A stretch of DNA of 29,236 nt from positions 545,117 to 574,352 of the forward strand of contig NW_003314368.1 of the NCBI RefSeq assembly GCF_000143415.4, written 5' to 3'. A model generated the notes under the pieces. The model was not told the origin of the DNA. It saw only the letters and a program-made list of their open reading frames with translations, and made no database searches. Positions 538 through 29,154 of the stretch are shown here, one piece after another; the first letter of the stretch is position 1; each line of letters opens with the position of its first letter. The stretch comes from Selaginella moellendorffii. Taxonomy: Eukaryota > Plantae > Lycopodiophyta. A program made the position numbers and the translations under genes.

Positions 538-566
538 TCCATTGCTAAGTCTTACTAACTTCCCGG

Positions 567-2171
567 ATGGCTATAGCTCCACCAAAGGATACTTTCTCGT
601 GGAATTTGATGCTCTCAAGGTCATCTAGCATCGAAGATGCCGAGAACATCTTTTATTCCATGCCACATCGTGACATTGTGTCATGGAATACCATGCTATC
701 GCTACTTGCCCGGCACAGCCATCACGACAAAGCCATGTCCACATTCCAGGCTATGCCGTACCACAACCAAATCTCATGGACCACGATGCTTCTAGTATAT
801 GCTGAGGGTGGGAATCTTCTCCAGACGCAGCGCCTCTTTGCGCAGATGCCACATCGGGATCTTATTTCCTGGAATGCCCTGCTCGGAGCATATACCCAAA
901 CAGGGCATATTCTCGAGGCTATTAGACTCTTTGAAAGAATGCCTCTGTGGAATCTCGTGTCGTACACAAGCATCCTGACATTGTATGGGCAGAGCGCGAA
1001 TCTTTTCCAAGCCAGAGACGTGTTTGAGAATATGCCCGAGCATAGCATCGTCACGTGGAACTCCATGCTAGCGGCATATGCCCGTGTCGGGCATCTAGAC
1101 GATGCGTGGACTACGTTCGAGAATATGCCCCAAACGGATCTCTTTACGTGGACCACCTTGTTAGTAGCCTGCTGCGAAAGTGGGAACATAGAACATGCCA
1201 AGAAAGTCTATGAGAAGATGCCAGAGGGATGCGTTGTGGCCTGGAATGCGATGGTGTCGGCCCTTGCCGAGAACGGGCATCTGGAAGATGCCGCGCGCGT
1301 GTTTGAGAATATGCCCGAGCACAGCATCGTTTCTTGGACCGCTATGGTTACGGCTTATTCTCGCAATGGCTTGCTAGAGCACGCGACAAGGGTTTTCGAT
1401 CTAATGCCGCATCACAACACGGTGGCGCTCAATGCGATGCTGGATGCCTACTCGTCGAGCGGCCACTGCGATCACGCCAAGCGCTTCTTCGATCGCATGC
1501 CACAGCGGAATCAGGTCTCCTGGAACACGATTCTGTGCGCGTTCTTGCGGAGCGGGCAGATCGACGAGGCCAGATCGCTGTTCTTCGGCATGCCGCGGGA
1601 CGAAATATCGTGGACGGCGCTCCTCGCCGCCACTGCGCAGCTAGGTCGTCTCGCCGCGGCCAAGAAGCTCTTTGATTCCATGCCGGAGCCTGGGATTGTG
1701 TCACAGGGGGCAATGCTGGCCGGATTCGCGAGCAGCGGCCATTCCACCGCGGTGATCGATCGATTTCATGAGATTCAGATGGTGCTGGAGCCGCGCCCGC
1801 TCTCCTTCCTCGCCGTGCTCATCGCTTGCAATCACACAGGCAAGACGTTCAAAGGGAGGAGCTACTTCGTGTCGATGGCGATGGATCACGGCCTTCGGCC
1901 GAGCAAGCAGCACTACTGCTGCGTGGTGGATCTCCTGGGCCGGGCAGGGCATCTGGATTTCGCCGAGGAGCTCATCGCGAGCATGCCATTCGAGCCAAAT
2001 ATTCTCGAGTGGACGTGCTTGCTGGGGGCGTGTCGAAGCTACAAGGATTCTTGCCGTGAATCACGTGTGATGCAGCGAGTGATGGAGCTCGATCCACGGA
2101 TGGGAGGCGGAGAGGCAGCGTCGGTGCTTCTCTCGAGCATCCATTTCATGGCTGGGCGGCTTAAATCTTAG
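567..2171 (+). CDS. PLS-class (E-type) pentatricopeptide repeat protein, probable organellar RNA-editing factor
   Basis: Intronless 534-aa ORF of tandem 31-aa motifs (MP.xxxVSWxxM...G...A...F). It ends in S2/E-like HYCCVVDLLGRAGHL...MPFEP...WTCLLGACR with no DYW domain. Confidence 0.95.
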   Translation: MAIAPPKDTFSWNLMLSRSSSIEDAENIFYSMPHRDIVSWNTMLSLLARHSHHDKAMSTFQAMPYHNQISWTTMLLVYAEGGNLLQTQRLFAQMPHRDLISWNALLGAYTQTGHILEAIRLFERMPLWNLVSYTSILTLYGQSANLFQARDVFENMPEHSIVTWNSMLAAYARVGHLDDAWTTFENMPQTDLFTWTTLLVACCESGNIEHAKKVYEKMPEGCVVAWNAMVSALAENGHLEDAARVFENMPEHSIVSWTAMVTAYSRNGLLEHATRVFDLMPHHNTVALNAMLDAYSSSGHCDHAKRFFDRMPQRNQVSWNTILCAFLRSGQIDEARSLFFGMPRDEISWTALLAATAQLGRLAAAKKLFDSMPEPGIVSQGAMLAGFASSGHSTAVIDRFHEIQMVLEPRPLSFLAVLIACNHTGKTFKGRSYFVSMAMDHGLRPSKQHYCCVVDLLGRAGHLDFAEELIASMPFEPNILEWTCLLGACRSYKDSCRESRVMQRVMELDPRMGGGEAASVLLSSIHFMAGRLKS

Positions 2172-2176
2172 GGTTT
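2169..2176. promoter_or_regulatory. telo-box (TAGGGTTT/AAACCCTA) overlapping the PPR stop and abutting the RNase H ATG
   Basis: Exact motif match; function inferred only. Confidence 0.4.
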
Positions 2177-4440
2177 ATGGGCAAGAACAGGTTCTACGCT
2201 GTGCGCCAAGGCCGCCAGCCGGGAATCTACACATCGTGGATGGAATGCCGGAAACAGGTGGGGATTTTGGAGAGAAATCGTTTCGCGATGCTCATGAGCG
2301 ATGCTTTCCAGGTCGATGGATTCGCCATGGCCGAGTACAAGAGCTTCTCTTTGAAAAGCGAGGCCAAGCTTTATCTTTCATCTCTCCAGCCCCAGCAAAA
2401 CTCTAAGAACAAGGTATTTTCGATCCAAATGTTGCCTAGAGAATGACTTGGGTGGATTTTTTTCTTTTTTTTCCAGCTTGTTCATCTTCTCCAGTATGAT
2501 GGTGCTTCTAAAGGCAATCCTGGAAAAGCTGGTGCTGGAGCATTGCTACGTGATCCGGACGGCTCAGTGGTTTGTAACATTGCGGTCCATGGTATTTGTA
2601 GTTTAAGAATGCGGGAGTTTTGCAGCTCCAGGAGCTGAGAATTGGCCTTGGCACCGCGACGAACAACTTTGCGGAGTATCAGGGACTCATTTTGGGATTG
2701 AAAGGAGCGTTGGCGCAAAACGTTACTCGTATTCGTGTCCAAGGGGACTCCAATCTCGTTTGCAAGCAGGTACGAGTGATGTCAAACAGGCATTTTTTTC
2801 TAAGATTTTGAAGGAAAGGTAGCTGGCATATGGAAAGTAAACAAGGACACTCTCAAGCCATTACACGCAGAAGCGCAATCGCTGTCGAAGAAGTTTACTG
2901 AGTTCACTATAGAGCACGTCGTACGGGTAATTGGTTTTTTGATCTCTTGGTTCAAACAGTAACATACCTTGCAGGAACTCAATAGTGCTGCAGACGATCT
3001 TGCGAATAAGGCCATCGATCTTAAACGTACGTCTCTAATGTTCTTTGCTGCCCTTCACTTACCCGAGATCCCTCAGCGCAAGAGGTTGTGAAAGATGTAA
3101 AATGTATAAAGCTACAGATCTCCGAGCCATCTCATCAGATCACCACTAAGAAAAACAAGAAAGAAGTTACTGAAGAGGTACATGAGTCATCTTATTGGAA
3201 ATAGTCTCATTTTTCCGTGTTATGGCAGTCTGTCTATGTGCTTGCGTACGATGGAGCTTCTAAAGGAAATCCTGGGAAAGCTGGTGCTGGAGCGCTGCTG
3301 CGCAATCCGAAGGGCTCAGTCGTATGCAAAAGCTAATTCCTGTTTCCCTTTCAAACAAGCTAGTCTGCAGATTGAAAAACTGTACATGGGACTAGGCACA
3401 GCGACAAACAATGTTGCAGAGTATGAGGCTCTCATACTCGGACTACAGGCAGCACTCGACCGGAACGTGACTAGCATTCAAGTATTTGGGGATTCCAACC
3501 TCGTTTGCAAGCAGGTATCGTCCATGTTCTAAACTTTAAGCCGTGCGTGACTCGAATTTTCCGAAGGTAGCAGGAGAATGGGCTGTGAGACATGAAGGCT
3601 TGAGAGCATTGCACGCGCAAGTACAGGCTCTTTCGATGCAGTTCACCACGTTCAGTATTCATCACGTTGACAGGGTATTACCTCTTTCTTTCTGGTATTC
3701 TACTCTCAAGTATGACTTAGGAAATGAACACTGAAGCGGACGCACTTGCAAACAAAGGAATCACTTTGCCATGTAGGTCTTCTCTTTAACCTTTCACGCT
3801 GCTAAAGTAATGCTTATATTCAGGCAGGACAATCGTAACGAGACCAACAAGAAAATCACCTCCTCACCAGCAACATCAAGTGGCAGAGTCTTCAACTGAA
3901 ATGAGCGCATTAACTCCTGACACTACAAGTACCGTAGAGGTTGGCAGTGCTGTTGCAAGGAAACTATCCACAAGAAGGAAGACAACGCAAGGGGAGAATG
4001 CGGAGCCTGTTGGACCTGACGCCTCAGATAAAGCTGGTGCAAATGCGAAGAGCCAATCGAAAAGAAACTCTGCAAAAAACATCAACAACAAAACCAACGC
4101 ACAAAACTCCGAGACAATTCAGAGGAAAGTAATGGTTGCAACGAGGACGGAAGCTTTAACACAGCAAACATGCGTTACGAAAAACGTAATGGACGCTGCT
4201 GTTGGGAGGTACGTCACAGTGGACGCAGCGCGCGGTAATCAAGTCCCAAGCAAACCATCGACTACTAAGGTTTCTTACAAGTCATACCACAGCTACTCGA
4301 CAATTTTCTCCAGATTTCCTACGAGGCCCGCGGTAACGTGTTTAATGCTTTATCTACTCCTTGACGTTCACCTTTTGTTTCTTTGTTGTCAAGGCCTGCA
4401 TTTCTGTTTTCAGGAGCCTCTCTACAATTGCAGTGAGTGA
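2177..4440 (+). CDS. Ribonuclease H1: N-terminal hybrid-binding (Cauli_VI-like) domain plus two tandem RNase HI domains and a low-complexity tail
   Basis: Hand-spliced GT-AG exons: 2177-2257, 2312-2413, 2477-2569, 2626-2769, 2819-2926, 2975-3026, 3077-3177, 3229-3321, 3371-3514, 3567-3674, 3721-3772, 3824 onward. The 3' end is uncertain (in-frame stop at 4440). Motifs: FYAVRQGRQPGIYTSW; YDGASKGNPGKAGAG, TNNxAEY, GDSNLVCKQV and N..AD.LAN each occur twice. Confidence 0.9.
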
Positions 4441-5246: not shown

Positions 5247-5909
5247 TCATGTCTTGCTGATCACTTCTTTCAGATGCTTGATCTCGCCATTGTCAACCTG
5301 GAAGGCAATCTCCAGCACCGCGTCCTCGATCGCCGGCATGGAAGCAAACACCGCCTTGGCAACCTGCGACGCTCCGGCGTTCTGGGACCCGAAAGCCGCG
5401 AGGCCAAACGCAGGAGAATCGCCCACATTGAGCTGGAAGTGGATGAGACCTTTGGGAAACACGAAGCTCTCACCGGCGGAGATGGTCTTGGCGAAGAGCT
5501 TGTTATCGGGGGCAGTGGTGACGAAGCCAACGTAGAGCTTTCCCTCGACCAGGAAGAGCAGCTCGGTGGCTCGCGGGTGGACGTGAGGAGGATTGAGGCC
5601 GCCGGGGGCGTAGTCGACGCGGGCACTGGAGACGCCCAGAGTGTTGAGGCCCGGGAAGCGAGCAGCGTTGGCGGTGGTGACGGCAGATCCCAGCTTGTTG
5701 GAGGTGTTGCCGGGCTTGGCGAGCGCGTTGGAGGAGAAGTGGTCCGGCGTGACCGCGGCACTGGGCAGGCAGACGAAGCCATTCACTTTGATGGTGGAGT
5801 TGACGTCGGCGACGCAGAAGTCCTGGAAGGGATCGGCATCGCCGCGGGCGATTTGGGCGGAGAATGCCGCGAGGATGGACAAGAGGAGCAAGAATTGGGC
5901 TGGAGCCAT
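5247..5909 (-). CDS. Germin-like protein (cupin), secreted
   Basis: 220 aa from ATG 5909: signal peptide MAPAQFLLLLSILAAFSAQIARG, then DPFQDFCVAD and germin boxes GLNPPHVHPRATE and FVFPKGLIHFQ. Intronless. Confidence 0.95.
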   Translation of the reverse strand: MAPAQFLLLLSILAAFSAQIARGDADPFQDFCVADVNSTIKVNGFVCLPSAAVTPDHFSSNALAKPGNTSNKLGSAVTTANAARFPGLNTLGVSSARVDYAPGGLNPPHVHPRATELLFLVEGKLYVGFVTTAPDNKLFAKTISAGESFVFPKGLIHFQLNVGDSPAFGLAAFGSQNAGASQVAKAVFASMPAIEDAVLEIAFQVDNGEIKHLKEVISKT

Positions 5910-6262
5910 ACTTTCCACCGGAGCTCTGGATTTGATGATCTTCCTCTTGGGCAGCGCGCGATGGATCCCTAGGAGACCTCTGGCGGTGTGAGGCCGTGAA
6001 GGGGAATTTATTTGAGCGGTGGGCATGGTGTCGCGAGACGGAGCTGGGTTTTAAAAATCAGATTTTTAATCGCAATCTCTCCACAGTGTTTGATCTTCTA
6101 CACTAGTGTCAATCGCCCGAAGAAACAGAGACTGCCATTAGCGCTACCTACCTTTTAGAAACTTTTTACCGCAAGCGAAAATGATGAGGTGGCTTTGTGA
6201 CTAAGCAAGATCTGGTCCACCTCAGCAACTTCAATGGCCACGTAAGCTTACACTTGGGAGTT

Positions 6263-9689: not shown

Positions 9690-10277
9690 TGTAAACAATT
9701 AAATTTTCCATTTTACTTTAATCACTTAATCACATCTCCAACCACTTGGAGGAATAATCTTTACAAGTCTTATTTTGGACTTGACTTGTTAGCCTTATAA
9801 ATGGCATATATGCCATTTAACCTTTGCACTTGTTATAAATGCTCCACATATCTGATCCTATGATCAACCCCCCAAATATACTATCGACATATCAACCTAT
9901 TACACTAAGGCCATATTTATTTACCCTTGCCTTATTAGTAATCCTAGACCACCCGTGCTATAGTCCTATCCCTCAAAGACTAGGCCATCCATCCATGAGT
10001 GGTCATCTCAAAACTACTCCTTAGCATTTTTAAGAGACCTAGAGACATAAGGAATAATCTTCTCCAACATCCCTTTTTTGATCCTCACCAAATCCCACTC
10101 CATCCTCGGCTATATTTGCCAACACTATTATTGGGCTAGGGCTTGAAGGCTCAACCACTACGTCCTATTGACTTCCAAGACTTCCTTGCTATATCACTAT
10201 ATCCTTAGTCATTACATAGGAAGACTACTCCTCTTCCTTTCCACAGTCTGGGATTTTGGGATAACATTTCAGAATAC
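9690..10277 (-). mobile_element. Old LTR, 3' half (solo or 3' LTR), interrupted by the DNA transposon
   Basis: Collinear with the reverse complement of ~24077-24675 (tgtaaacaattaaattttccattttactttaatcacttaa vs tgtaatcgactaatttttccattctactttagtcacttaa). Ends in CA on the minus strand with no PBS beyond it. Confidence 0.85.
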
Positions 10278-10281
10278 TATA

Positions 10282-10305
10282 AAGCTCTATTTTGTTAAAG
10301 TGGGA
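10282..10305 (+). repeat. Left TIR AAGCTCTATTTTGTTAAAGTGGGA (TSD TATA at 10278-10281)
   Basis: Reverse complement of 22670-22693 with one mismatch. Confidence 0.92.
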
Positions 10306-10744
10306 ATTGTCATTATCCCACTTGTAAAATAAGGTTTCCAAACCTTTATATAGTATATAAATATAACAAAATTCAACTGCATTGAGGCACATGCCATTTT
10401 ATTTTAAACAAGGAAATGTCTACTCAATCACTTCTCCTCCCCCTGCCACTGCTTCACCTCTCTCTTCTCCTTGTCATCGTCGTCCAATTTCTTTCCATCC
10501 TTTTAATATTGGCTCAGTTGCTCCGAGTCTAGGTGGAGCCCAAGTCCCCATTCAATCTTTACTTTCCCATTATTAATAAAACAACTTCGTAGACTTCCAA
10601 TAACATACTGTAACACTTCTAGTATAATGCAAATCCTCTCAAAGAATTGTCTTTTAATATTAATACAATGGCATGGAACCCCATGCCATAATAAGTTACA
10701 TTTTTAAATAAATACATGCCATCTCAGACTGTTATTTTTTGCCT

Positions 10745-13700
10745 CTAACGCCTATACAATAATCTTGAAATTTCATCACTCTCCACACTATCAGGATTTA
10801 AACCCAATAGTAATGCCATCTCTTCTCTAATACGTCCACGCTCATGTTCAGTGGTCGAAGAACCCATCCGGTTGAGCAGATTATGGAGATGCGGATAGTG
10901 CTTGGCTAGACAATATACATGCCATAAATGATGACTGGTGTCTGTCCGATCAAATGGCTTCTGATATACCGTTCCATCTGCCATTTGGTTGATTTCTGCA
11001 GCCACCTCCTGGACTGGCCGGTTCTCTATCACCATCGCTCCAAGCCGTTTTGCAAGGTCCCCCAGAACATACGGTTTCTTCTCCCTAGTTTCCATACTGC
11101 AAGAGATGGGGTGCACTGCATATGTGTGCGTGTTCGCTGCAGTTTTAATCGGCGAGTCATCGATGATGAGGATTTCACTTGAGCTAGCAGTCTGGTTCAT
11201 CACTATAGCCTCTGGCTTGACGAAGATGGGCTTGCTACCCCTCACATGGACCATAGTCAAGCAATCCTCCTGCGTTAGGAGAAAGTCAAATGGTAATATT
11301 ACTCGCGTCTGATCGTGCATCATCTGTAGCAACGTTAATGCATTGTGGCGCATCATGGATGTCCAAACTCCCAATTGCAAATTGAACCCGGCCCTCTGTT
11401 TTAAGTGTCGCATGGTCATTATTAGATCCCGCAGTTTCTCCCGTGTGATTAATGTGAATCTGTCTCTTTTGACCAACTTGCGACCGCAGGCTTTGGAGGG
11501 TGCAATGACATTCGAGGACGAGCCACGCTCATGGGAGAAAAGGACACCATTCAGATAAAAAACGATACAGTACCTTCGCCGTGACTCTGAAATGAAGTGC
11601 GTCAGCATAAAAAATGGTACAAGTCAATTTTACCATCTACAATATTAGCGAATGTTGCTCCCGATGGTCGTTGAGAGGGTTTTGGTTGAGGAAATGTGAA
11701 GGGCGGAAATACTCTCCTCTGCAATGTGGGGTCAATTGCATCCGATGGCGTGTGGGCACATGCCATTTCAGCTGTAGACTCTGGTACAACTGGCTCAATA
11801 GTGGCATGGGGTGGTTCCGATGGCATGTGATCACACGCCATTTCAGCTGGTGCCTCCGTTGGCAAAGTGGACATGACCGAACAGGCAGCAGGGGCGGTGT
11901 AGGGAGGTTCCAACGGCGCGTAGTCAGACGATTGGGCACACGTTGAGTCCGTTGGAAATGAGGATACGACCGGCTCGGCGGCTGGGGCGGCCTCATGTGG
12001 GTCCAATGGCGCTTGGTCACCGTCAGGATGATACATGGACAAGATTGACTCAGTGGTATGGGCAGCATCAAGTGGAGCGTGGTCAGCTTGCTTGGCGTTG
12101 ATATGGATAGTAGCCTCCACCAGCTCTGATGACTCTTGCAGCCAAGTAGAGTCCACTGGCGGATCCATATGCATGTCCAAATATCTCCCTTCGATTGAGA
12201 TGGTATCCTCCCGTGCTACTAAAAACAAACTCATTAGCACATTGAATCGACTATACTGTATTTACCATCAACTGCTATTGAGGAACTAGGACCGATATCA
12301 CTTGAGCGCACTGCTGATTCTGAAGGATTGGACATACGTTTCGACCCTTGCTTGGCACTATCCTTCCTCGACACTAAAGGCTAGAGTTTGTAAATTCAAC
12401 TGAATAATCTCTACTTACCATTTGCTCTGCGACCTACATGGACAATGTTAGAAATGGTAAAAGGTTAGGAATGGATGTATTATTATTTACCTGATGGTTT
12501 GTCTTGTATGACCTTCCTCCGCCGCTCTTTGGCCACCTCAGGCTGGCCATCGTCGTCATCATCGTCGTCGTCGTTATTGTGATCGTCACCATTGTGAGGA
12601 CCATCCAAGTCCTCTTCGTCCTCCTCTTCTTTGTCCTCCTCTTCGTCCTTCTGCTCTTCCTGCTCATTATCTTTCTCTGGCTCCTCATCCCCCTCCTGCA
12701 TTTCTTCCATAAGCTGCTCAGGCTGGATGGCTTGTTCTTCCAGGACCATCTTGGGAAAATCATCTGGCCGAGTCTCCATCTCAAAATACAAGACATCCAT
12801 AGCCTGTTTTAGTGCGTGACCTAGGACCGTATCCTCACCCGACTGTGTTAACATGGTTTCTGCACGTTCTTGCACCCTTCGAAGACGATGAGATGAGAAA
12901 AACGTGGCCCTGCCTTGAAAAGCTTCCCTCATCCATTGTACCTCTCCATTGAGATTGGGGAAGGGGAGTCCGCCATAGGAATCTGAGTCATGAGGTGGTG
13001 ACTGCCTGCTTTCACTCAGCCCTTGATTTGCAATGAATGGCATGAGCACACACGCCATAACCGCGAGGCATTACCTATCATCTTTTCGTTGCCCTTCTTC
13101 CTTTTCGAATCAAACGCCTCTGATCTCGATGACTGTCCAACGTGCTTTCGCTTTTTATGACCACTGTCAGTTTGAGCTTAGCTGGTGCTTGCCTGTTTTG
13201 CCTTTGAAGAAGTTTCTCCTGCAAGGAATGGCATGAGACCACACGCCATTGCAAATATAATTTGTACCTCCTTTTTTCCTATTGCTTTTCTGTTTGTCCT
13301 TCTTCGATGTGCCACCAGTGCGCTTTTCAGTCCTCGTGTCTGAATATTCACAACGATCTATAATCAAAATGGCGTGAGGCCTCACGTGACCTTACCTTGT
13401 GCAGGTTGTGAGCTCGGCCCAACATGGGTATCTTCAACAGTAGCTGTTAACGCCGTTTCAGCATCTGGGGGTGGCCACGCTCCTGCATACAGAGCTTGTG
13501 AGATAACATTTAAACTTAAAGTGCGTACTCACCAGGTTCGCAGAGAAGATACTGTTTTTCTTTGGCAACTGTAATTATATGCTCCATTGAAGTCACCTCT
13601 TCAATGGAGTTTGTCACCGCAACACACGGGACACCCTTGAGTAGTGTGGCTCAAAAGAATAGTCCACCGCAGTTGTACTCGACAACGCATTTGCCCTTGG

Positions 13701-16053
13701 AGTCGGAAGCAGGTGACCCACCCGCTATTGCGTTGAAGACCCAGCTGAGCATTTCCCATGCTGCACCTGGAGCTTTCTTTGGATTCGAAAGCTCCATAGC
13801 CGTCTTCAGTTCCTCAGGCACGGGTAAATTGACCTCCCTCAGATCAATTCGATTGGCCTTGTCGAACGAAGCTGGGAAGTCACTCCAGTCCCACTCTGCT
13901 GCAGGACCAATAACAAGGGCGAGTGTGAAGATGCGGACATTCGTCGGTATCTTCTTCTTAGCCATTATCCCATGGATCTCCCGCATCTCCTTGCCTTTCA
14001 ACCGAGCCTTCACCTCGTTCAAGGCCTTCTAGAACTTGTGATAGGATTCGGAGTCGTAGATCATATAGTGGACTGAAGATTCCACCTCCGCAAGTCCCAC
14101 CATTAAGTCAATGATGGAGCTGACTTCGTCTGCATGAGTGATCTCCTCGTTTGTGAAGTCCATCACACAAAAGATGTTCTTGACCTGCTCATCTCCGCGG
14201 GAAACGATGCTCCTCCACCTTTGATCCTCATCCGAATTCAAGTATACCCGGTAAGGTTCTCGATAGGCCTCTGCTGCGGGGTCGAGCTGTTTCTGAAGCC
14301 GGCGGTCGACATCAATCTTAATGAAATTTGGATACTGATCCAACTTCTCAGCTTTACTTTTCGTGGCATCCCGCAGCAGATCGATGAACTTGGGGGCCCC
14401 CTTCACGTACTCGTCGATGTCTTCATTTGACAACTCCAGCGCTTCCATCATCTCTTGCGTGGTGTTGATGCTCACCCTCTCCACGGCCACTTGCTCGAAG
14501 ATCCAATCCTTCAATAGCGCACGAGCTCTCAGAGTCATGCACAAGTCCTCGTATGTCACAATATGGCCGGGAGTCATTTTGGTCTTGTTGAAGACAACCT
14601 CACCACGTAGAAGAGCATTAGCCACTGTCAGAAGGTCGTCGTCGTCTAGAGACCGCGAGAAACGCAAGGCGTTGAGCTTCAAATCATTGGGCTTCCGGCC
14701 GTCCTCCACACCCATTGAGTTTGGCAACTCCCCGTCATGGTACCTCCTCAGCACATCTACCCATTTGTCAAAAACAACTTTTGTCGCGAGTAGAATGTTA
14801 TGGATGCTGAGTGTGTCATTGACCCCCAGTGTTTTCGAGAGAAGACTCGAGAATTCCTGCAATGGAAATGGCGTGAGGCCACATGCTATGCCACATACAA
14901 CGAGGCTTACCTGCCAGGCGCTAGTTGCTAGTGCACGTCCTTGTCCTGGTTTTTGTGGCTTCTTCAGTTGAACCCAGAGCTTCCGTGTTCGTGCCAATGT
15001 CTCGTGCAGACCAGATTTGTAGCACGTTTCTTGCTTGACATTCTGCGCGTGGGAGATGTATATGATAGATCGGAGGGGCGAGTTGCCTTTTATCAGGCGG
15101 ACAACTCTTGTCTTGAAGACTTTCTTCACCTCCTCGCCCACCATAATATCCACAACTATCTCTTGCATCGCCAAGCTAGAATGCTGCCCGGAGACGGCAT
15201 AGAACCGGATGTTCTGATCGTCCAACACCTTCCTATTGATCAAGTCTGGAAACCTCATCTCGCCCTTCATTTTTTGGTAGTAGGGGATCACGTCTGCGAT
15301 GTCGGGTGTTACTGGACTTGCCAGCATCTTCTGCTTCAATTTCTCCACCCACTCATCAGATACTAGCCTGTGGTTGTATTTGCTTTGGATGTCGATACGG
15401 CTCACGTCGATTGTATATACTTTGTTGGAATAGTAACAAGTACTATTATCTGCGACGATTTTTGCTGCCTCTTCTTGCTCTTTCTGCTCTTTGCGGCTCT
15501 TCTTTTTGGTGGGTGTAGTGTTCGAACCCGAGGCAATGGCATCACTGAGTAGCTTCTTTTTTGGAGCAGGAGAGTCAGACGTCGGCTTGAGCTTGACCAC
15601 CCTTTTCTGCTTCGAGGTAGTTTCCAGATCGACCCCCTTCCCCTTTGCTTCGCGAACTGGAGTCACTCTCAACGGCTCAATGTTGGAATATAGTTTTTGA
15701 ACATCGCCGTAGGTGAGGTCCGTGGATTCCATGTGATCTTCATAGACCCGCAGCGTCTTTGAAATTGTGGGCCTCCTGGACAACCTCTCCCTAGCTCCCT
15801 CTAGGAATTCCTCATAGCCGCTGCCCCCCTTCGGGAAGCCGCTAGGATGTGCAAGGTGGATCTTGAAGGCAGACGCTGTCTCTACCACAAGTGCCAGTCC
15901 ATATTCTTGCATGGAACTGCATGGAGTGTCTGTCACTTGGATGAGGATCCCCATGCATTCTTTTCTCCCACCATCTGTGTTGTACAGCCTCAGATCCTCG
16001 CCTTCCATCCCGAAAGTCCAACTGGTGAGCTCCTCCCCCTTCTCTGCATCCAT
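10745..16053 (-). pseudogene. Transposon accessory gene, ~1622 codons: ParB-like domain, DNA amino-methyltransferase-like fold, basic/acidic/Pro-rich linker, FCP1/NIF HAD phosphatase-like domain; 3 premature stops
   Basis: Exons 16053-14911, 14856-13533, 13482-13396, 13357(or 13339)-13268, 13218-13075, 13021-12491, 12433-12419, 12373-12266, 12218-11634, 11586-10745. All junctions are GT-AG and phase-consistent. Stops at 14029-14031, 13651-13653 and 13178-13180. Confidence 0.8.
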
Positions 16054-16533
16054 ATTGACAGTGGCTAGAAGAAGAACGCAATTCCTCGCCTGTTCAGAAA
16101 TGCACAACAATTAGAGCTGACAGATGAAAAGCTAGTAGCTGGAAATAACGTGAGGCCACACGCCATTCACCACTGCATCAGATGTCTTGAGGCTGCATCC
16201 TAAGATGGCGTGAGGCTACACGCCATCTGTAACCGAACTGCACTCGAGAGCCCAATCGGTGCATGCCAATGTTGCTACTGAATGGCATGTGGCCTCATGC
16301 CATTTTCTACTTGGCCTAAAAGACTTACCATTTGAAGCCGAATGGAGGTGTGACAACCGGACTCGCTGGCGAATGTGCACTGTGTGTGCAGCGGATCGTA
16401 GCAGCAAGGCTACTCTGCCACTTACAGTTGGAGAGTGGCGCTGAAATCTCCCGGGACGCCAAGTGGGCTGCGTGTGGGTGGCGGAGTGGGCGGCGGAGTT
16501 GGCGGCGAAGTTACAAACTGGGTGTGTCTTGAA

Positions 16534-16735
16534 GTGGACGCCGATGCACACGAGCACGATGCGAGCGCGATGCGAGCGCGAGTGTGATGCAAGCGCGAGT
16601 GGACGCCGATGCACACGAGAAACCTGTAGAGAAGTGGGAGCGCGAGTGGGAGCGCGATGCGAGCGCGAGTAGGAGCGCGATGCGAACGCGAGTGGGAGCG
16701 CGATGCGAGCGCGAGTGTGCGAGCGCGAGTACGAA
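16534..16735. repeat. CpG-rich degenerate tandem repeat (GCGAGCGCGAT / GGGAGCGCGAGT units)
   Basis: Visible 11-12-bp units plus a 21-bp direct repeat gtggacgccgatgcacacgag. Confidence 0.85.
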
Positions 16736-17048
16736 GCAAAATGCAAAACCTAACCTCACACGCGCGAAATGTCACGACGGTTGGTAATCCCGCCACGTCA
16801 TCATTTTTCGGACTTGGGCGCCACCATTAATTTCTGGATCGGCGCACGCATGCGTGAAATCCAAAAGAAATCCGCAACGTCATCATTCCTCGGACTGCAT
16901 ACACGCGAAATCCAAAAGAAAGATCATGATTGGGATATCATTTAATACCCTCGCTATATTTATACCATGCATGATTGGATATTCCAAAGCATCTTGTATT
17001 TCCAAAAATGCCAGTGTTCAGCTAAATAAATTGTCAGAGGATGACGTT

Positions 17049-18084
17049 CAAGCATGTGGGCTCATGCAATTTTGATCCCAAAAAATGCACCAAAAAATGC
17101 TCGGCGTCATCTGGCGTTATCTCTTGAATGGCGTGGGGCCGCATGCCATTTTCAGGAGCACATAGGAGTATATTCCTAGAATATTCTGACACGCGCGAGA
17201 TTGTTTTGAGTTTCCTGGAGATCCAACCGTTAGATCGCAACTAGATTTTACAGAATGGTATACAATGTCCTTCTTGATGACCCTGCAAAGAAGCATCTCG
17301 ATCGGACACCACATGAGACCACACGAGCCTTACAATGTTTCAGGGGCATTTGCCATAGATCCGACCGTTATTTTGCTCCAAGATTCTACAGTTTGGTGTG
17401 CATTAACCTTTCCATCGACACTGCAAAGGGACATCACAATCAGATGCGGGATCACAAGAAACCAACTTCACTAACTCTGGTTTCACCAAGATCTACGTAA
17501 GGAGTTATGAAATGAAAGGACCCTCTCTATTGAAATGTGTTTATGGTCCTAGGGGCATTGTGACATATCCAAGGATTTTGCATCAAGTTCTGTATTTGCA
17601 TGTTTATCAAGCTACTGAATTGCTAAACCCTAAACCCTAAACCCTAACCCTAAACATGTGGCAAATGCTGCGTGAAGAAAGATGCCCTTTCTGGGCAAAT
17701 GCTGTAAGAGGCAGATTCCGAGCAGATGTATCTCAGGCCAGCGAAGGGGACAAACGAAAGCTAGCTATAAACATGACGGGATGCAAATAGATTACTAGGC
17801 TGGTCCTGCGAAAATCAAAAACCATAATTGAAAACATTGAAAATGCAAAAAGAAAGGTTTATAATATTTTTGAATTTTAAGCAACCAAATGAATGTAAGT
17901 AGGGCATGTGTTTGTAAGTTTAAAAATGCCTCAACCACTTAAATTCCCAAGTAAATAAAGCTGTTTCTATTTTTGGTACAGGTAAACTTTATAGCGTGTG
18001 GGCTCATGCAATTTTGAACCCAAAAATGCACCAAAAAATGCTCGACTAGCATTATTCTTTGAATGGCGTGTGGCCTTATATTGC
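17049..18084 (+). repeat. ~90-100-bp direct repeat pair (17049-17149 and 17991-18084), each bounded by palindrome copies
   Basis: gggctcatgcaattttga.cccaaaaa(a)tgcaccaaaaaatgctcg...ttgaatggcgtg.ggcc occurs in both. Confidence 0.85.
17623..17655 (+). repeat. Interstitial plant telomeric repeat (CCCTAAA, ~4.5 units)
   Basis: ctaaaccctaaaccctaaaccctaaccctaaac. Confidence 0.9.
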
Positions 18085-18455
18085 CATAAATGGACGTACA
18101 CACACAGCATAATTATTCCTTTACATGGCGAATAATCTTGGCGCGGATCGCTGACATGGCATGGCAAAGTTCGAATCACTGACATGGCACAGCTGGATCG
18201 AGGCAAGGACATGATGTGACAAAGTTCAACCTCCGACAGCAAAGTCTAGAAGCTACTCAGTTTGAAATTTGTCAGAGGAATCATAAGATCTGGTTTGTCA
18301 GAGGATTTGATGTGACGTTCAAGCGTGTGTTATTTTTGAATTCTCGAACTCATTCCTAGGTCTATCATTTTTGTGCGCCGTGTTCTTGGTTCCGCTGAGC
18401 GCAGTGAGCGCTGCTTGTGTAAGCGGCGTTGTGAGCTGTGGTTTATGCGTCTACA

Positions 18456-18585
18456 AGCGGTTGCGGCATTGCGAGCGCCATTGCGAGCGGCAGTTTATGC
18501 GAGTGGCAGTTTGTGCGAGCGGCGCTACGAGCAATTGCGGTGTTGCGAGCGGCACTACGAGTAGTTGCGGTGTTGCAAGCGGCAC
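18456..18585. repeat. CpG-rich degenerate tandem repeat (TTGCGAGCGGC-containing units)
   Basis: Repeated gcgagcggca and ttgcggtgttgcg units, including a ~30-bp tandem. Confidence 0.8.
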
Positions 18586-18940
18586 CGTCTTTGGTGTGGC
18601 TACCGCTTCCTCTTGATATTCGGCACTTGTGCTTCCTGGTATGTTCACCATGGAATGGTTTAGGACCACATTTAGAAATGGCATGAGGCCACATGCCATC
18701 TTGGGCCCTTGCAATTTCATGGCTAGCGTATTGTCATGTATGTTTTTACTTGCCTGCAGCTGTGTGTATATCAAGATGGCATGAGGCCTCATGCCAATTT
18801 TGTGAATGCAAAATTTCACGTGGGTGTCAATAGCATGTTTGAATAATGGCATGTGGCCTCATGTTATTTGGTATGTTATGATTTAGGCCATTCTCCAATC
18901 ATTTTTTGTATGGTCTTAACTTCTTTTCTGCACTTTCAGA

Positions 18941-21900
18941 ATGGCCTTTAGGGTTGGGGAAAAGGTTTACATTTTGAATGGTGGGAAGAGAGTTGCAAAA
19001 GGGACCCTTGTGTCTATGGATCGGAACTTTGTTATACACTGTCAAAGGCTTGGGGAAGGCAATGCTGCTGTATCAGTAGAGACTGTCTTCGATGGGAATG
19101 TGGTCGCTATTGAACGAGGAGAGATGGTCGTCGGGGTAAATGTTGTTGTTGCCTTGAAAAATCTGCAGAAGAAAGCAGATGTTGGGGACAGCGCAAGTGC
19201 GACGCATGTTCCCTCCGTGGATCTTAAGAACCGTGCTACATGGATTCAGGCAAAGGTGTTTCTAAACAACCCCGAGGGGGAGGTGGTAGCTGAGGGCTTA
19301 GCCACAGTTGTCGATCCAAGAAATGCGGTTGCTAATCAAGAATTGGGCTGGGATGATATTGGAGTTGCAATTTTAGAGGTTGTTGACACAGAAGAAAACA
19401 GTCTGACTATTGGAAGCATTGTGCGGTGGAAATTGAGGCATTTAGTGTTTGAGAATGTGAAGGATTCACAATCAAACACCACTACAACTGATGACAGAAC
19501 ATCTCTTCATGGGAAAAGAAAGTACACCTTCCTACAGCGCAGCCAAAGGGATCTGAGCAACGAACCGAAAAGGCAGAAAATGGTGATGGACGTTCGAATG
19601 GTCTCGACAGTTGCTTGTTGCAAGAGGAGGTGCTGTCAACATGCTGATTGGGATGCTATTGAAGAGGAGAGAGCAAGATACAAGACATTGTCCTGGAAGG
19701 CAGCTCGCAATTTTGTGTATGAGGCATTACGGTCATCTGTTGATGCTTCAGAACATCAGGTGGGGGGCATGGTCTTCTAGAGGGGTTTGGTCTACATGAA
19801 GGCATGGAGAATCATTTATGGAGTCCCTCGAACCACATTCTACAGAATCAAAACTGAGTTCGAGGAACAAAGGGTTGAAAAGGCAGTCCATGGGAACGAC
19901 GGTACGCACAAAACCAGGGGTCATGTTGTATATGGAGAGGCAATCTTCAAGAGGTTTGTCGAGACATGTAGCGAGCAGCAACCACATAAAACCCGCCTCT
20001 TGGAAGATGGAACACGAGACACCCAACGAGTTCTCCCTTCCATGTATACCAAGGGGGCCATATTGGAAGATGTGAATCGGGAACTCCAGAGTAATGGCTA
20101 CAGGAAGCTGAGCCAATCTAGATTTAGTAGATTGTGGAGCAACAGGTTTAGGGATGTGAGTATAGGAAAGTACTCCAGCTTTTCAAAGTGTGACGAGTGC
20201 ACTGCTATCAAAATGGCTTTGTCGAAGAATTCTTGCAGCGCTCAAGAGCGAGAGACGTTGGTTAGAAGGCGGCTCGACCACAACATCGAGCAGAGAAGCT
20301 GCAGGACTGCATATTATCATAACAGGATTCTCTCCATGGAGAGACCTGACTCTTACCTCTGCATCATCCACGACAAAATGGACCAGAAAAAGACGTGCTT
20401 ACCTCGACTCAATCCTGCCCCCAAGGCAATCTCTTCATCCATGCAGCTGCCTGTGTCTCTGTTTGGCATAATCGCTCATGGGCATGGTGCCCAGAACTAT
20501 GGGAACTTCTTTGTACCTCTATGGGGTGGCGGGGGTGCAAACATGATGATTGCGTCCCTAGCAAAACACTTAAGGTCTCTGCAAAGTGCGCAGACTGAGC
20601 TGAACGGCCAACCCTTGCATAAGGCCCTTGTCGATCGAACCCCATACAGGGTTCAGCTGGAGGAGGAGCAAAGGCTTGCAGTATCGCGTGGGGCCCCATG
20701 CCATCCCAGTGAATATGTTGGCCGTCAGATTGTAGGGTTATCACGTGAGGCCTCATGCCATTCCGACGAGGCTGGTCGCCCGGTGAATGCACACTCATCC
20801 AAACGAAGCAGAATCTCAAGGAAGTTCTTGCGGCCGATGTGGCCTTCCACCCCATCTTCTGCTCCAAACAGACAATGCTGGCAGTGAGAACAAAAACATG
20901 TACGTCTTCGCGTACTTGGCGATGCTTGTTGCCAAAGGCATATTTGAAACGGTTACACTTGGCTTTCTCATGGTTGGGCACACTCATGAAGACGTCGATG
21001 CCATGTTTAGTCACCTGGCAGAGTCCCTCCGGCGATCCAATGTCCTCACCCTCCCACAATTCTACGATGAATTCCAAAATTGCATCAAAGGCACTGTTGA
21101 AGCTGCACTTGTGATAGAGGTTCCAGACTTTAAGGGGTTTGTAAGAGGCTACATCAGGGACGGATCCGAAACGCTGATTGGCCACTCCAAGCCTCTTCAG
21201 TTTCATTTCAGCATGCGTGACGGTGCTCCAGTGATGAGGTACAAGATGAGAGAATGGGACACAGTGTGGCTGCCAGTGGACGGCATTGAACTCTTCAAGA
21301 GAGATCCCATAACTGGGGAACCTATGATTCCTCAGGGTTCCCCACGGCCGATGCACCCGGATGGACTCAAAGACCAGGAAAGTATAGTGGCCGGGATTAG
21401 ACAGCATATTGCCTTCTGGAAGAGGGGGTTGGTGTTTGGTGGAGAATCCTATTTTCAGAGGTGCAAGCCTTTGCTCGAATACTGGGAGAAGATTATATCT
21501 GCTATCCAAAATGGGCCGGTTGTATATGAAGAATTGGAAGAGTCCTTTTGGCCAGAACCCAGAGCACCAGATAGTAGCGGAACAATGTCCTCTGGAAATG
21601 CAGTGACAGATAACGATGTTGAGGATCACTATTGTGGGCCGAGGAACAAGAAGCCGGATTCAGCATTCAATCCAGTACAAGTCTGCAAAGGAATGGTCGT
21701 GCTTGTCAGACCCAGTAATAAAAAACAAATGATATGGGTGGGGCGCTGCATCACTGATGCAGAGGAGGACGCGGAAACTAACTCCTTCAATGTAACTATG
21801 GAGTGGTTCAAGCCAAGTTCCGGATATACGAAGGATTGCCTAGAAAAGAGATGGGTGCTGAATCCAAGGGATCCCAGCATGAGCATATCGGTGGATAATG

Positions 21901-22077
21901 TTGTGCATGGTTGGATGCGGAAGCAGAGTGCCACCATCACCTTGCCAGACCATGCAAGAGATGCAGCAAGAGCATTCATAACCCGGGTTCAAGGTGAGAT
22001 TTAATATTCCTTTACTAAGTTTCTAATGTATTTTATTTCAAGGTGAACAATCCGAATCTGAATCAGAGGAGGCGTGA
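18941..22077 (+). pseudogene. Sola-like DDD transposase (disrupted), with two N-terminal beta-barrel repeats and a C-terminal BAH/Tudor-like barrel
   Basis: ORFs 18941-19780 and 19787-20887 share a frame, separated by one TAG. A frame change (frameshift or intron) in ~20680-20850 leads into ORF 20787-22004, with a probable last exon at 22043-22077. Motifs CDEC...H, CIIHDKMDQKK, LLLQTDNAGSENKN, GFLMVGHTHEDVDAMFS. Confidence 0.82.
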
Positions 22078-22669
22078 TGGCATGTGGCCCTTTGCACTAG
22101 TATATCTTAATACTGGTCTGAGAAATAGAATGGCATGTGCCCTCAGGCCTTTTACTAAATCACCTTTGAAAGAAATGCAAGCCTCTATGTCGTAAAAAAA
22201 AGGTACTAGAGAAATTCCTTAATAATATGAATGTTATTTAGTTTCATGAAAATACACTAAGGGTCAAATGAGTTAAATGACTTCTCCAGACTAGCAATGC
22301 CTCTTGCTACACCTTCACAATTAGATTCGTTAGAAAAAGATAACATTGAATAATATCTAAATGTTCTCACCATTAAGTTATATGTCTGGCTAATAGGAAT
22401 GACATTCATCTTGGAAAGCTCACCACACGCTCAATGAACAAACAAATAGTGTGTGCGCGCATGCCATCGCTCTTCTTTAGCTTCAGATTCGGCTTGTTCA
22501 CCTTGACAATGAGATTTATTATACAACCAGATGGACTCAGTCTGGACACAAAGTCACCGCGCTAGTCACCATGCCCCAGATATGTCTAGCCCCTAGACAA
22601 AAAACATATAATTTCACGTCATTTTCAAATACTTGAAAATTTGTACCTAGTCCCATTTTACTGAATAAA

Positions 22670-22693
22670 TCCCACTTTAACGAAATAGAGCTT
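22670..22693 (-). repeat. Right TIR (TSD TATA at 22694-22697)
   Basis: tcccactttaacgaaatagagctt. Confidence 0.92.
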
Positions 22694-22697
22694 TATA

Positions 22698-23280
22698 ACC
22701 TTATGCAAGCCTTGTAAGTACTCTCCCCACCTTCCACCTTTAGGTCCTTAGCTATGTGGCTAGAGTGAAGTTTCAATGAGCCATGCAAAGTATCCAAGTA
22801 GGTAATGCCACCCACACTTGGATTGAGAGCATTGACCATTCGATCTTCTACGGGAGCTAGAGCAAGCTTTTGAACACTTCACCAAAATACCTTATTTATC
22901 CATCTTTATTAACTCTAACCTTGAACTCTTTAGTGGTTATATTATCACCCACTATATGAGTATAGCATTCCTTGGTCACACTGGCCTTTCTTGGCCAAAC
23001 TGGCTCTACTGGAGTCTTCCCCTTACTATACTTTTGGAGCTCACCAAGGTTTGGGAGACAATCGCTTTAGGCTTTCACCCTCGGACTTGGACTTGGATTT
23101 GGACTTAGACTTGGACTTAGTCTTGGACTTGGTCTCAAACTCGGTCTTAGACTTAGTCTTGGAGTCGGTCTCAAAGTTGATCTTGGACTTAAATTTGGTC
23201 TCAGTCTCAATCTTAGTCTCGATTTCAATCTCTTTCTCAGTCTCGGTCTCTTTCTCAACCTTGACCTCAAACTCCATCTC
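22698..23280 (-). mobile_element. Old LTR, upstream half (continuation of 9690-10277), 5'-truncated in the hexamer array
   Basis: Reverse complement of ~23480-24073 (e.g. ctatacttttggagctcacca vs tggtgagctccaaaagtatag). Confidence 0.87.
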
Positions 23281-23675
23281 AAGTAGTCCGAGATGGACCG
23301 AGATGGAGTCCGAGATGGAGTCCCAAATGGACCCGAGATGGAGTCTGAGATGGAGTTCGAAATGGACCCGAGATGGAGTCTGAGATGGACCGAGATAGTG
23401 TCCGAAATGGAGTCTGAGATGGACCCAGATGGAGTCCGAGATGGAGCTTGAGATGGACCCAAAATGGAGTCTGAGAAGGACCCGAGATGGAGTTCGAAGT
23501 CGAGACCAAGACCGGGACCGAGACCGAGACCGGGACCGAGACTGAGACCAGGACCGAGACTAAGACCGAGGCCAAGGCCGAGACCGAGCCCAAGCACGAG
23601 TCTGAGTCCGAGTCCAAGTCTGAGTCCGAGTTCGAGTCCGAGTCCGAGTCCGAGTTCGAGTTCGAGTTCAAGTCT
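23080..23675. repeat. Two opposed degenerate hexamer arrays (GAGTCC/GAGACC/GAGATG), switching strand at ~23281-23287
   Basis: GACTTG/GTCTCA units on the left; GAGTCC/GAGACC units on the right. Confidence 0.9.
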
Positions 23676-24675
23676 GAGAGGGTGAAAGCCCAAAGCATTC
23701 GTCTCCCAGACTCTAAGGGGTTTGGTGAGCTCCAAAAGTATAGTATGGGGAGGACTCTAGTGGAGCCAGTTTGGCCAATAAAAGGCCAATTTGGCCCAAG
23801 AAAGTTGTGCTCAGGTGTTGGGTGATGGGATAACCACTGGGAGGTCCAAGGCTAGAGTGAATACAGACTATCAAGCGGGGTACCTTGGTGAAGTGTTCAA
23901 GAGCTGGCTCTAGTTCCCCCGGGAGATCGAATGGTCGATGCTCCCAGCCCAAGTGTGGGTGGCACTACCTACTTGGATACCTGGCGTGGCTCAACGGAAC
24001 CTCGCTCTAAGCCCATGGCTAGAGCACCAAAAGGCAAAAGGTGGGGAGAGTACCCATGAAGTTTGCGTAAGGCCACGGTGTTCTGAAATGTTGTCCCAAA
24101 GTCCCAAACTATGGAAAGGAAGAGGAATGGTCCTCTAGTGTAGTGACTAATGATACGGTCATGTGGTGAGGAAGTCCCAGAGGACAGTGGGACTTAGTGG
24201 TCGGGCATAAAGGCCCAGTCCCAATGGCAGTGTTGGCGAACACGGGCATGGGCAGAAATGGGACTTAGTGGGGACTGTAAAAGGGATATTGGGGAAAGTT
24301 GTTCCCCATGTCTGCGGGCATCTTAAGGATGCTAAGGAGTGGATTTTGGATGGTCACTCTTGGACGGATGGCCTAGTCCTTGAGAGACGGGACTGTGATG
24401 TAGGTGGTGTTGAACCACCGGTGTGACTAAGGTGAAGGGGCATAGCCTTAGCGTAACGGGCTAGTATGTTGGTGGTACCTTGGGTGTCGGTCTTGAGACT
24501 GGGCACGTGGAACACTTAAACTAAGTGCAAGGGATGAGTGGCATGGATGCCATTCTCGGGGCTAGCAAATCCCAAGTCCTGAATTAGACTTAAGGAGGTT
24601 GTGAATGAGACTCCTCCAAGTGGTCAGAGGTGTGGTTAAGTGACTAAAGTAGAATGGAAAAATTAGTCGATTACA
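23287..24675 (+). repeat. 5' LTR (5' end missing)
   Basis: Homologous to the split minus-strand LTR; terminal CA lies immediately before the PBS. Confidence 0.85.
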
Positions 24676-28728: not shown

Positions 28729-29154
28729 TGTGAGACACAAATCCCTAAGCCCCAAAGTGGAGCCAAAAAGGTGCCATGTGGTAGTGGCTGAAGCGAAAGC
28801 CAAACGAGCGTAATACGTTTGGACTAAAAGGCTCCAACTTGAAAGGTCAAGAGCAGGAGTGGAACTCCCAATGGAGTACTTGTAAGGAACCAACTCGCCG
28901 AGGTGTCGTAGGCTAAAGGAACCCCAAAAGCATGACCAAAATGACAAAGAGTTCATCGGATGGGACCAAGTCGAAGATCGAGTCCAAAACCGACTCTAGG
29001 ACCGAGTTCGAGATAGAGTCCGGAATCAAGTCCGAGACCGACTCGGGACCGAGTTCGAGTCCGAGTTCGAGACCGAGTTCGAGATGGAGTCCGAGATCCA
29101 AAATCGGGTCCGAGACACGAGTCCGAGGTCAAGTCCGAGGTCGCGTCCGAGGGT
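28729..29154 (+). repeat. Start of putative 3' LTR with hexamer array (~28960-29150), truncated
   Basis: Same GAGTCC/GAGACC array. It ends in ccgagggt like the other copies, then diverges. Confidence 0.6.

What the first reader, a model, noticed from the sequence alone, without database searches (positions are those of the whole stretch)
10745..16053. Separate-looking ORFs splice into one ~1620-aa ParB-like / MTase-like / phosphatase-like protein
The 693, 123, 72, 191, 212 and 287-aa ORFs plus small exons (one of 15 bp) join through nine GT-AG introns. Eight consecutive introns are phase 1, and every exon between them is a multiple of 3. Such consistency is unlikely by chance. The domain combination is unlike any transposon accessory protein I recognise.
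Basis: partly seen in the sequence, partly recalled or inferred. Interest (0 to 1): 0.85.

Follow-up and report, generated by a model that had tools for sequence, protein, structure and literature searches.

The report
Spliced three-domain transposon accessory gene
A dead copy of a 12.4-kb plant jumping gene carries, beside its transposase, one predicted ten-exon gene that joins a ParB-like part, a likely inactive DNA-methyltransferase-like part and a phosphatase-like part, an order also seen in a liverwort gene model, and its protein likely recognises the 20 palindromes scattered along the element's own DNA.

Summary
The splice model holds up as DNA anatomy: nine GT-AG introns of 45-57 nt join ten exons into 1616 codons, and 7 of 9 introns carry a branch-point-like motif that only 16 of 253 pseudo-introns have. 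This copy is dead, with three internal stops. High-depth contigs of one DNA-like run show sense codons at two of them and at the final stop, plus a canonical intron-5 acceptor. The gene lies, divergent from a DUF7869 transposase, inside a 12,412-bp element with 24-bp terminal inverted repeats and a TATA target duplication. A Riccia gene model has the same ParB-like, methyltransferase-like, FCP1-like order in one protein. No spliced RNA was seen, but coverage was almost nil. What my searches did not find in print: the land-plant form, its lost catalytic motif, the added phosphatase-like domain, and palindromes that double as branch points. Likely role: self-recognition or anti-silencing, untested.

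The parts
10282..22693 (.). 12,412-bp cut-and-paste DNA transposon, likely Sola1-type, decayed copy, inserted in an LTR-like remnant
   Evidence: 24-bp terminal inverted repeats (23/24), TATA on both sides; removing the element and one TATA aligns without a gap at the junction to a sibling repeat at 23860-24250; X3 contig holds 112 nt before 10400
10278..10281 (+). left target-site duplication (TATA)
   Evidence: a 4-nt duplication scores best (466 vs 458-461 for 0, 2, 3, 5, 6 nt)
22694..22697 (+). right target-site duplication (TATA)
10282..10305 (+). left terminal inverted repeat, 24 bp
22670..22693 (-). right terminal inverted repeat, 24 bp
10724..16053 (-). predicted ten-exon accessory gene (pseudogene in this copy; window frame ends at 10745, X3 reads on to about 10724)
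14911..16053 (-). exon 1: divergent N-terminal region, basic linker, ParB-like domain (about 14959-15441, SGQH motif)
14857..14910 (-). intron 1, 54 nt, phase 0, in frame, holds a palindrome
   Evidence: removal raises the alignment score in 6 of 6 homologues that span it; gap in homologues in alignment A3
13533..14856 (-). exon 2: all-helical domain (about 14320-14856) and degenerate beta-class amino-MTase-like domain (about 13570-14202); two premature stops
   Evidence: stops sense in X3
11634..13482 (-). exons 3-9 with introns 3-8: basic, acidic and Pro-rich low-complexity linker; third premature stop at 13180-13178; 15-bp exon 12433-12419
   Evidence: in X3 a 4-nt insertion falls in intron 7 and a 15-nt insertion in exon 6
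10745..11586 (-). exon 10: FCP1/NIF-like HAD domain (about 11126-11569) and C-terminal tail
   Evidence: PF03031 E=5.3e-4, below cut-off; X1 and X3 have Asp where the window has Tyr at 11557
18941..22004 (+). DUF7869 DD[D/E]-type transposase gene, divergent from the accessory gene; predicted 55-nt intron 20681-20735; two internal stops
   Evidence: PF25273 E=4e-39; model
10668..22467 (.). 20 dispersed copies of a 22-bp imperfect palindrome (8-bp arms, 6-bp spacer): 12 in non-coding flanks of the two genes, 5 in predicted introns, 3 in predicted exons
   Evidence: 21 matches with at most 4 mismatches in the window, 20 inside the element; 0-1 in each of 20 shuffles (the consensus was drawn from the copies)

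Best explanation
This is the broken copy of a predicted single accessory gene of a 12.4-kb, likely Sola1-type DNA transposon of a non-seed land plant, whose protein likely binds the element's own palindromes to keep the element transcribed or mobile. Shown: the element's ends and target duplication, the transposase, the splice signals, the stops, their absence in other copies (two of three directly), the palindromes, and the same domain order in a Riccia gene model. Inferred: the ParB-like domain plus the helical domain after it would bind the palindrome as a dimer, as bacterial ParB binds parS (recalled); the MTase-like domain lacks the catalytic DPPY-type motif and would act as a non-catalytic DNA-binding or shielding module; the long disordered linker would tether an FCP1-like domain that might act on or bind a phosphorylated chromatin or transcription protein. 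This would work like the VANC anti-silencing proteins of VANDAL elements, without being one.
For: Splice signals against pseudo-introns. Intron 1 removal improves 6 of 6 spanning homologues by 10-28 points; two more that start at the junction change by 0 and -4. X3 contigs at depth about 100-130 over all 30 bins have sense codons at 14030, 13653 and 10746, the canonical acceptor at 13028, Asp at 11557, and frame-respecting indels. Element ends and TSD. Riccia P0046 (KAL3675584.1, 1064 aa): SGQH motif, PF01555 E=5.8e-4, PF03031 E=1.9e-5 over cut-off, same order; local score 173 to the window protein against at most 64 in 200 shuffles. Atlas: DUF3723 clusters 0.96/0.95 and ParB_N 0.92 for residues 200-385. 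Family MTase region vs 11 prokaryotic amino-MTases: hhalign probability 72%, score 39 vs at most 26 in 30 block shuffles. 20 of 21 palindromes inside the element, 17 of the 20 non-coding. Precedent: Sola1-1_Ec32 (AA..TT termini, 4-bp TSD biased to end in A, ParB + MTase gene opposite the transposase), PAG3 with inverted-repeat arrays, VANC binding short motifs in non-coding regions.
Against: No spliced read or contig in six RNA or possibly-RNA runs laid; coverage was near zero in the raw reads, and X1 contigs run through introns 5 and 9 unspliced. The third stop is not shown reverted: X3 has one unlisted difference within 13176-13206. ParB-like is not confirmed by profile comparison with 12 ParB_N sequences (score 20.8, shuffles up to 21.3) nor by Pfam, PHROGs or NCBIfam, and the family has Ser/Thr where those ParB_N sequences have Arg. 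With the window protein as master the MTase match is no better than shuffles (18.7 vs 18.9) and below PrmA (23.5). The fold of the MTase-like part of homologue P0030 has pLDDT under 50 and no significant structure match. Window and Riccia HAD domains do not align significantly to each other (58 of 500 shuffles as good). P0046 is an automatic gene model and its transposon context was not checked. Nothing tested shows binding to the palindrome.
Confidence: 0.5

Rival explanations
1. The palindromes are binding sites for the transposase (as subterminal motifs are for En/Spm TnpA, recalled) and the accessory protein is a transposition or targeting helper like MURB, not a self-recognition factor.
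For: The transposase has an N-terminal Tnp1/En/Spm-like match (PF03017 E=0.016), apparently in two copies. MURA-MURB interaction is a precedent (PMC12973397, passages).
Against: The palindromes are spread through introns and the regions upstream of both genes, not packed at the ends. ParB-type accessory genes are reported beside inverted repeats on an unrelated transposase (PAG3 on Plavaka).
Confidence: 0.25
2. The protein is an active N4-cytosine or N6-adenine methyltransferase that marks the element's own DNA, as proposed for the algal proteins.
For: Family-level match to amino-MTases; M.MboIIA at rank 3 in Foldseek, though E=0.3; ParB_N fused to an adenine MTase occurs in phage PhiCh1; proposal in PMC12477816.
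Against: In all six plant-side sequences that cover the site (window, P0002, P0015, P0030, P0036, P0046) only the Asp of the DPPY-type motif is left, and the SAM-binding glycine motif is degenerate (alignments).
Confidence: 0.1
3. Two separate genes, or a ParB-MTase gene followed by captured passenger exons: the phosphatase-like exon is not part of the same mRNA.
For: No cDNA evidence. Selaginella moellendorffii P0002 and its three cluster members carry the helical + MTase-like part alone. Only 1 of the 46 proteins fetched has all three parts. No fused homologue of 1181-3370 aa (weak, by the tool's own note).
Against: Unbroken chain of signal-bearing introns in frame from exon 2 to exon 10; frame-respecting indels in X3; same order in Riccia P0046; most other hits are short contigs or models ending near intron 1.
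Confidence: 0.12

Closest known systems
ParB-like + N4C/N6A DNA methyltransferase accessory protein of Ectocarpus Sola1-1_Ec32 (PMC12477816; passages of the main text and supplement rows read)
   Same: Giant TIR element with 4-bp TSD ending in A and AA..TT termini; accessory gene on the strand opposite the transposase; ParB-like then MTase-like domain.
   Different: Here a land plant; MTase-like domain without its catalytic motif; extra C-terminal FCP1-like HAD domain behind a 500-aa linker; 24-bp rather than 282-bp TIR; 20 internal palindromes. Direct sequence comparison was not done.
PAG3 and PAG2 of red-algal Plavaka elements (bioRxiv 10.1101/2025.02.11.637652; passages read)
   Same: ParB-like accessory protein proposed to bind inverted repeats of its own element; a PF01555 methylase on the same element.
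   Different: PAG3 is fused to a 2OG oxygenase, the methylase is a separate SET-fused gene, the repeats are tandem arrays beside the gene, and the transposase is of the EnSpm/Plavaka type.
VANC anti-silencing proteins of Arabidopsis VANDAL elements (PMC10398659; passages read)
   Same: Element-encoded accessory protein and short element-specific motifs in non-coding regions; the functional model adopted here.
   Different: Mutator-like host element, tandem-repeat motifs, no sign of shared domains; VANC activity is shown by experiment, here nothing is.
DUF3723 cargo proteins of fungal Starships (bioRxiv 10.1101/2021.12.13.472469; passages read)
   Same: Best named Atlas neighbours of the ParB-like region (0.96, 0.95); conserved cargo of a mobile element.
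   Different: Fungal, tyrosine-recombinase elements; no Pfam DUF3723 match for the window protein.
Riccia sorocarpa KAL3675584.1 (P0046), labelled only 'FCP1 homology domain-containing protein'
   Same: Same three parts in the same order, with an acidic linker.
   Different: 1064 aa, shorter linker, HAD match starts at profile position 36; an unstudied automatic model.

Membership tests
Sola1 DNA transposons | 4-bp target-site duplication | tested here: met
   TATA on both sides, best-fitting empty site; 4 bp listed for Sola1-1_Ec32
Sola1 DNA transposons | terminal inverted repeats | tested here: met
   24 bp, 23/24, starting AA like Sola1-1_Ec32
Sola1 DNA transposons | transposase that groups with Sola1 reference transposases | not testable with these tools
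   PF25273 (DUF7869) E=4e-39; that DUF7869 covers Sola transposases is recalled; no Repbase sequences held, the founding paper was not held, 'DUF7869' gave no paper
ParB/Srx N-terminal domain | sequence or profile match to ParB_N | tested here: inconclusive
   Atlas 0.92 to a ParB_N cluster and 0.96 to DUF3723; hhalign aligns the motif but not above block shuffles; no Pfam, PHROGs or NCBIfam hit
ParB/Srx N-terminal domain | Arg of the G-x-H-R nucleotide-binding motif | tested here: not met
   Plant family has SGQH followed by Ser or Thr; all 12 ParB_N comparators show H-R or G-R
ParB/Srx N-terminal domain | ParB fold | tested here: inconclusive
   single-sequence model failed, mean pLDDT 33; not searched
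beta-class N4C/N6A DNA methyltransferases (PF01555) | permuted order with C-terminal SAM-binding segment | tested here: met
   for the family: PF01555 E=0.0039 (P0025) and 5.8e-4 (P0046), PADLOC MTase_II E=6.4e-5, hhalign 72%; all below curated cut-offs, and weak for the window sequence alone
beta-class N4C/N6A DNA methyltransferases (PF01555) | catalytic (D/S/N)PP(Y/F/W) motif | tested here: not met
   absent in 6 of 6 plant-side sequences covering the site; found by pattern in 8 of 11 comparators
beta-class N4C/N6A DNA methyltransferases (PF01555) | Rossmann MTase fold | tested here: inconclusive
   homologue P0030: pLDDT under 50 in this part; Foldseek best E=0.16, M.MboIIA rank 3; VIA-align best Z 6.0 to Smr
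FCP1/SCP (NIF) HAD phosphatases (PF03031) | profile match over the domain | tested here: inconclusive
   window E=5.3e-4, 20.2 bits vs cut-off 21.8; Riccia P0046 passes the cut-off
FCP1/SCP (NIF) HAD phosphatases (PF03031) | DxDx(T/V) catalytic motif (recalled) | tested here: not met
   window YLNG; X1 and X3 give DLNG, first Asp kept, second replaced by Asn; DLNG as a plant and fungal variant of this family is recalled
VANC-type anti-silencing proteins | binds own element's non-coding motifs and removes silencing marks | not testable with these tools
   only the motif layout is seen

The most novel reading that the evidence does not exclude
A land-plant transposon lineage shared by lycophytes and liverworts carries its own ParB/parS-like self-recognition system: one protein loads at element-specific palindromes, shields them with a dead methyltransferase domain, and delivers an FCP1-like domain to RNA polymerase II or chromatin, while the same palindrome serves as the branch point of the gene's own introns, tying splicing of the factor to the integrity of its binding sites.
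Probability: 0.2. Interest if true: 0.8.

Novelty: new variant of a known kind. Interest (0 to 1): 0.52.

Why it matters
VANDAL/VANC is the one well-studied case of a plant transposon that binds and de-silences itself. ParB-plus-methyltransferase accessory genes were proposed in 2025 as a second class but only from algae and without tests. This finding extends the class to non-seed land plants, gives a precise candidate binding site (20 copies of one palindrome), and adds a phosphatase-like effector, so the proposal can be tested with one protein and one oligonucleotide. It also shows why such genes are missed: short introns, stops in most copies, and domains below Pfam cut-offs.

Tried and rejected
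No own genome was held, so paralogues could not be aligned. No RNA holder was listed for the stretch. Raw RNA runs X9 and X10 were read to about 12% each: X9 gave 8 reads, 7 only partly on the stretch; the 344 reads of X10 lie on the acidic repeat and run on into unrelated sequence, so I rejected them as cross-mapping; no joints in either lay. Word-index protein searches found nothing with the 674-aa ORF or alignment A3. Of 25 HMMER hits I dropped three as compositional (P0005, P0007, P0014). No related loci in metagenome or viral contigs; genome contigs were not scanned. PDB sequence searches gave nothing significant. tblastn of P0030 against phages: no match. Single-sequence fold failed. The helical domain folded well in P0030 (pLDDT about 80, residues 16-185) but had no clear structure match, which does not show a new fold. 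No Atlas result was obtained for the window's MTase-like or HAD regions; P0046 whole gave only unnamed streptophyte clusters at 0.86 and 0.85. An inner inverted pair at 10386-10404 / 22123-22141 was first taken for the termini and rejected: it is a palindrome pair with no target duplication. A 2-bp TA duplication fits the empty site less well than 4 bp. Literature: searches found no paper with this three-domain protein; Iyer 2016 (PMC4738411, passages and section 8) has no such clade and no mention of phosphatase; the Marchantia 4mC preprint (passages) has active TSPPY enzymes and no ParB. Not seen: Iyer 2011 (ref. 50 of PMC12477816), Bao 2009, and the bioRxiv supplements of the Bostrychia paper, any of which may describe related proteins.
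Full report
Observation. On the minus strand nine GT-AG introns of 45-57 nt join ten exons, one of 15 bp, from the ATG at 16053 to the stop at 10745, 1616 codons in all; intron 1 is phase 0 and introns 2-9 are phase 1. The joined frame holds three internal stops, at 14031-14029, 13653-13651 and 13180-13178. The run of phase-1 introns and the symmetric exons are one fact counted twice, and G-ending exons in an acidic linker favour phase 1 (G at codon positions 1, 2, 3: 38%, 14%, 28%).

Independent support for the introns. Seven of 9 introns have a branch-point-like motif ending 14-17 nt before the acceptor; only 16 of 253 same-size GT..AG pseudo-introns on that strand and 11 of 219 on the other do, and none of the 472 has donor, acceptor and branch signals together (distance window chosen after the fact). 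Intron 1 is in frame and could be read through, but removing it raises the alignment score for 6 of 6 homologues that span it, from about four independent lineages, and changes little for two that begin at the junction; many single-exon homologue models end just after this position.

Other copies. Contigs of run X3 cover all 30 bins at depth about 100-130, with rare low-depth contigs that leave the element at 13175 and 14807, as expected of a multicopy repeat (depth is no copy number). They carry sense codons at two internal stops and at the final stop, a canonical intron-5 acceptor at 13028, and Asp in place of Tyr at the start of the HAD motif. A 4-nt insertion falls in intron 7 and a 15-nt insertion in exon 6. 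The third stop lies in a 31-nt stretch where X3 has one difference that the table does not list, so its reversion is inferred. Of the 56 listed differences I classed, 12 are synonymous, 37 replace a residue, 3 remove a stop and 4 are intronic, and 44 have A/T in the window against G/C in X3: neutral decay of this copy. RNA gave no joints, with near-zero true coverage, so splicing remains predicted.

The element. The gene lies in a 12,412-bp element, 10282-22693, with 24-bp terminal inverted repeats and TATA on both sides; taking out the element and one TATA restores an LTR-like sequence that aligns across the junction without a gap to a sibling copy in the window. On the other strand, diverging, is a DUF7869 transposase gene (PF25273 E=4e-39), also with two stops. 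A 22-bp imperfect palindrome occurs 21 times in the window, 20 times inside the element, 17 of these in non-coding DNA. In introns 1, 4 and 5 its right arm is the branch-point-like motif. The host is likely a Selaginella-like lycophyte: very short introns, the style of the PPR genes (recalled), and a S. moellendorffii protein as best hit, at only 29% identity.

The protein. HMMER over 1.84 billion representatives gave 25 hits, 22 after dropping three compositional ones; the named ones are from Selaginella, Riccia and Calypogeia. Residues about 205-365 form a conserved domain with an SGQH motif whose Atlas neighbours are DUF3723 and ParB_N clusters; profile comparison with 12 ParB_N sequences lines the motif up but does not beat shuffles, and the motif Arg is missing. 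An all-helical domain follows, well predicted in homologue P0030. Residues about 600-810 match prokaryotic amino-methyltransferases at family level (hhalign 72%), weakly for the window alone, with the catalytic motif reduced to its Asp in 6 of 6 sequences. After some 500 low-complexity residues comes an FCP1-like HAD domain. Riccia P0046 has all three parts in this order in one 1064-aa model and aligns to the window protein over residues 180-537 (score 173, shuffles at most 64); their HAD parts do not align significantly pairwise.

Mechanism. I commit, at about even odds, to a self-recognition factor: the ParB-like and helical domains would bind the palindromes as a dimer, the dead MTase-like domain would help grip or shield the DNA, and the tethered FCP1-like domain would act on a phosphorylated host protein, together keeping the two divergent genes expressed. 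Every step of this is inferred from anatomy and precedent. The main rival gives the palindromes to the transposase, which has a Tnp1/En/Spm-like N-terminal match. Active methylation is unlikely given the motif loss. I put the single-gene anatomy alone at about 0.85.

What is known. Ectocarpus Sola1-1_Ec32 carries a 1104-aa ParB-like plus N4C/N6A MTase gene opposite its transposase, has AA..TT termini and a 4-bp TSD, and its best match is a Physcomitrella Sola1 transposase (PMC12477816). Red-algal PAG3 is ParB-like and lies beside inverted repeats. VANC proteins bind short motifs in non-coding regions of their own elements. Searches found no account of the land-plant form or of the FCP1-like fusion; Iyer 2011, Bao 2009 and the Bostrychia supplements were not seen.

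Verdict. Observation confirmed with corrections; interpretation partly supported. A new variant of a recently described, untested class of transposon accessory proteins. Interest 0.52.

Noticed in passing
window 14857-14910, 13219-13267, 13028-13074: Introns 1, 4 and 5 share their 3' half: the palindrome followed by a short pyrimidine tract and acceptor, with the palindrome's right arm in branch-point position. They may have arisen from one palindrome-bearing unit.
   Followed up: partly
window 18941-22004 (+): The transposase has two N-terminal Tnp1/En/Spm-like repeats, a Cys-rich segment, and a C-terminal 130-aa tail that looks like a chromatin-reader beta-barrel by eye but has no Pfam match.
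   Followed up: partly
proteins P0002, P0027-P0029 (Selaginella moellendorffii): Annotated 379-451 aa proteins holding only the helical and MTase-like parts, on two scaffolds: possibly a domesticated derivative.
   Followed up: no
proteins P0004, P0006, P0013, P0018, P0019, P0024: A conserved, unnamed beta-rich domain of about 150 aa precedes the ParB-like domain; the window has a shortened version.
   Followed up: no
window 9690-10277, 22698-23047, 23722-24675: LTR-like repeat copies in both orientations, 75-92% alike; the first two are the halves split by the element.
   Followed up: partly
window 23080-23680 and 28960-29150: Arrays of 6- and 12-bp units that keep long low-complexity frames open on both strands.
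   Followed up: no
window 16460-16730: GC-rich 11-, 12- and 23-bp tandem units upstream of the accessory gene, in the likely shared promoter region.
   Followed up: no
window 1-2171, 2165-4440, 5250-6050: Host genes: two divergent PPR genes (the plus-strand one scanned), an RNase H-like gene with a duplicated 120-bp exon-like block, and a germin-like cupin gene.
   Followed up: partly
L012 / L009 (Natrialba phage PhiCh1): The phage adenine methyltransferase M.PhiCh1-I has an N-terminal ParB_N match, a prokaryotic example of the ParB + amino-MTase layout.
   Followed up: partly
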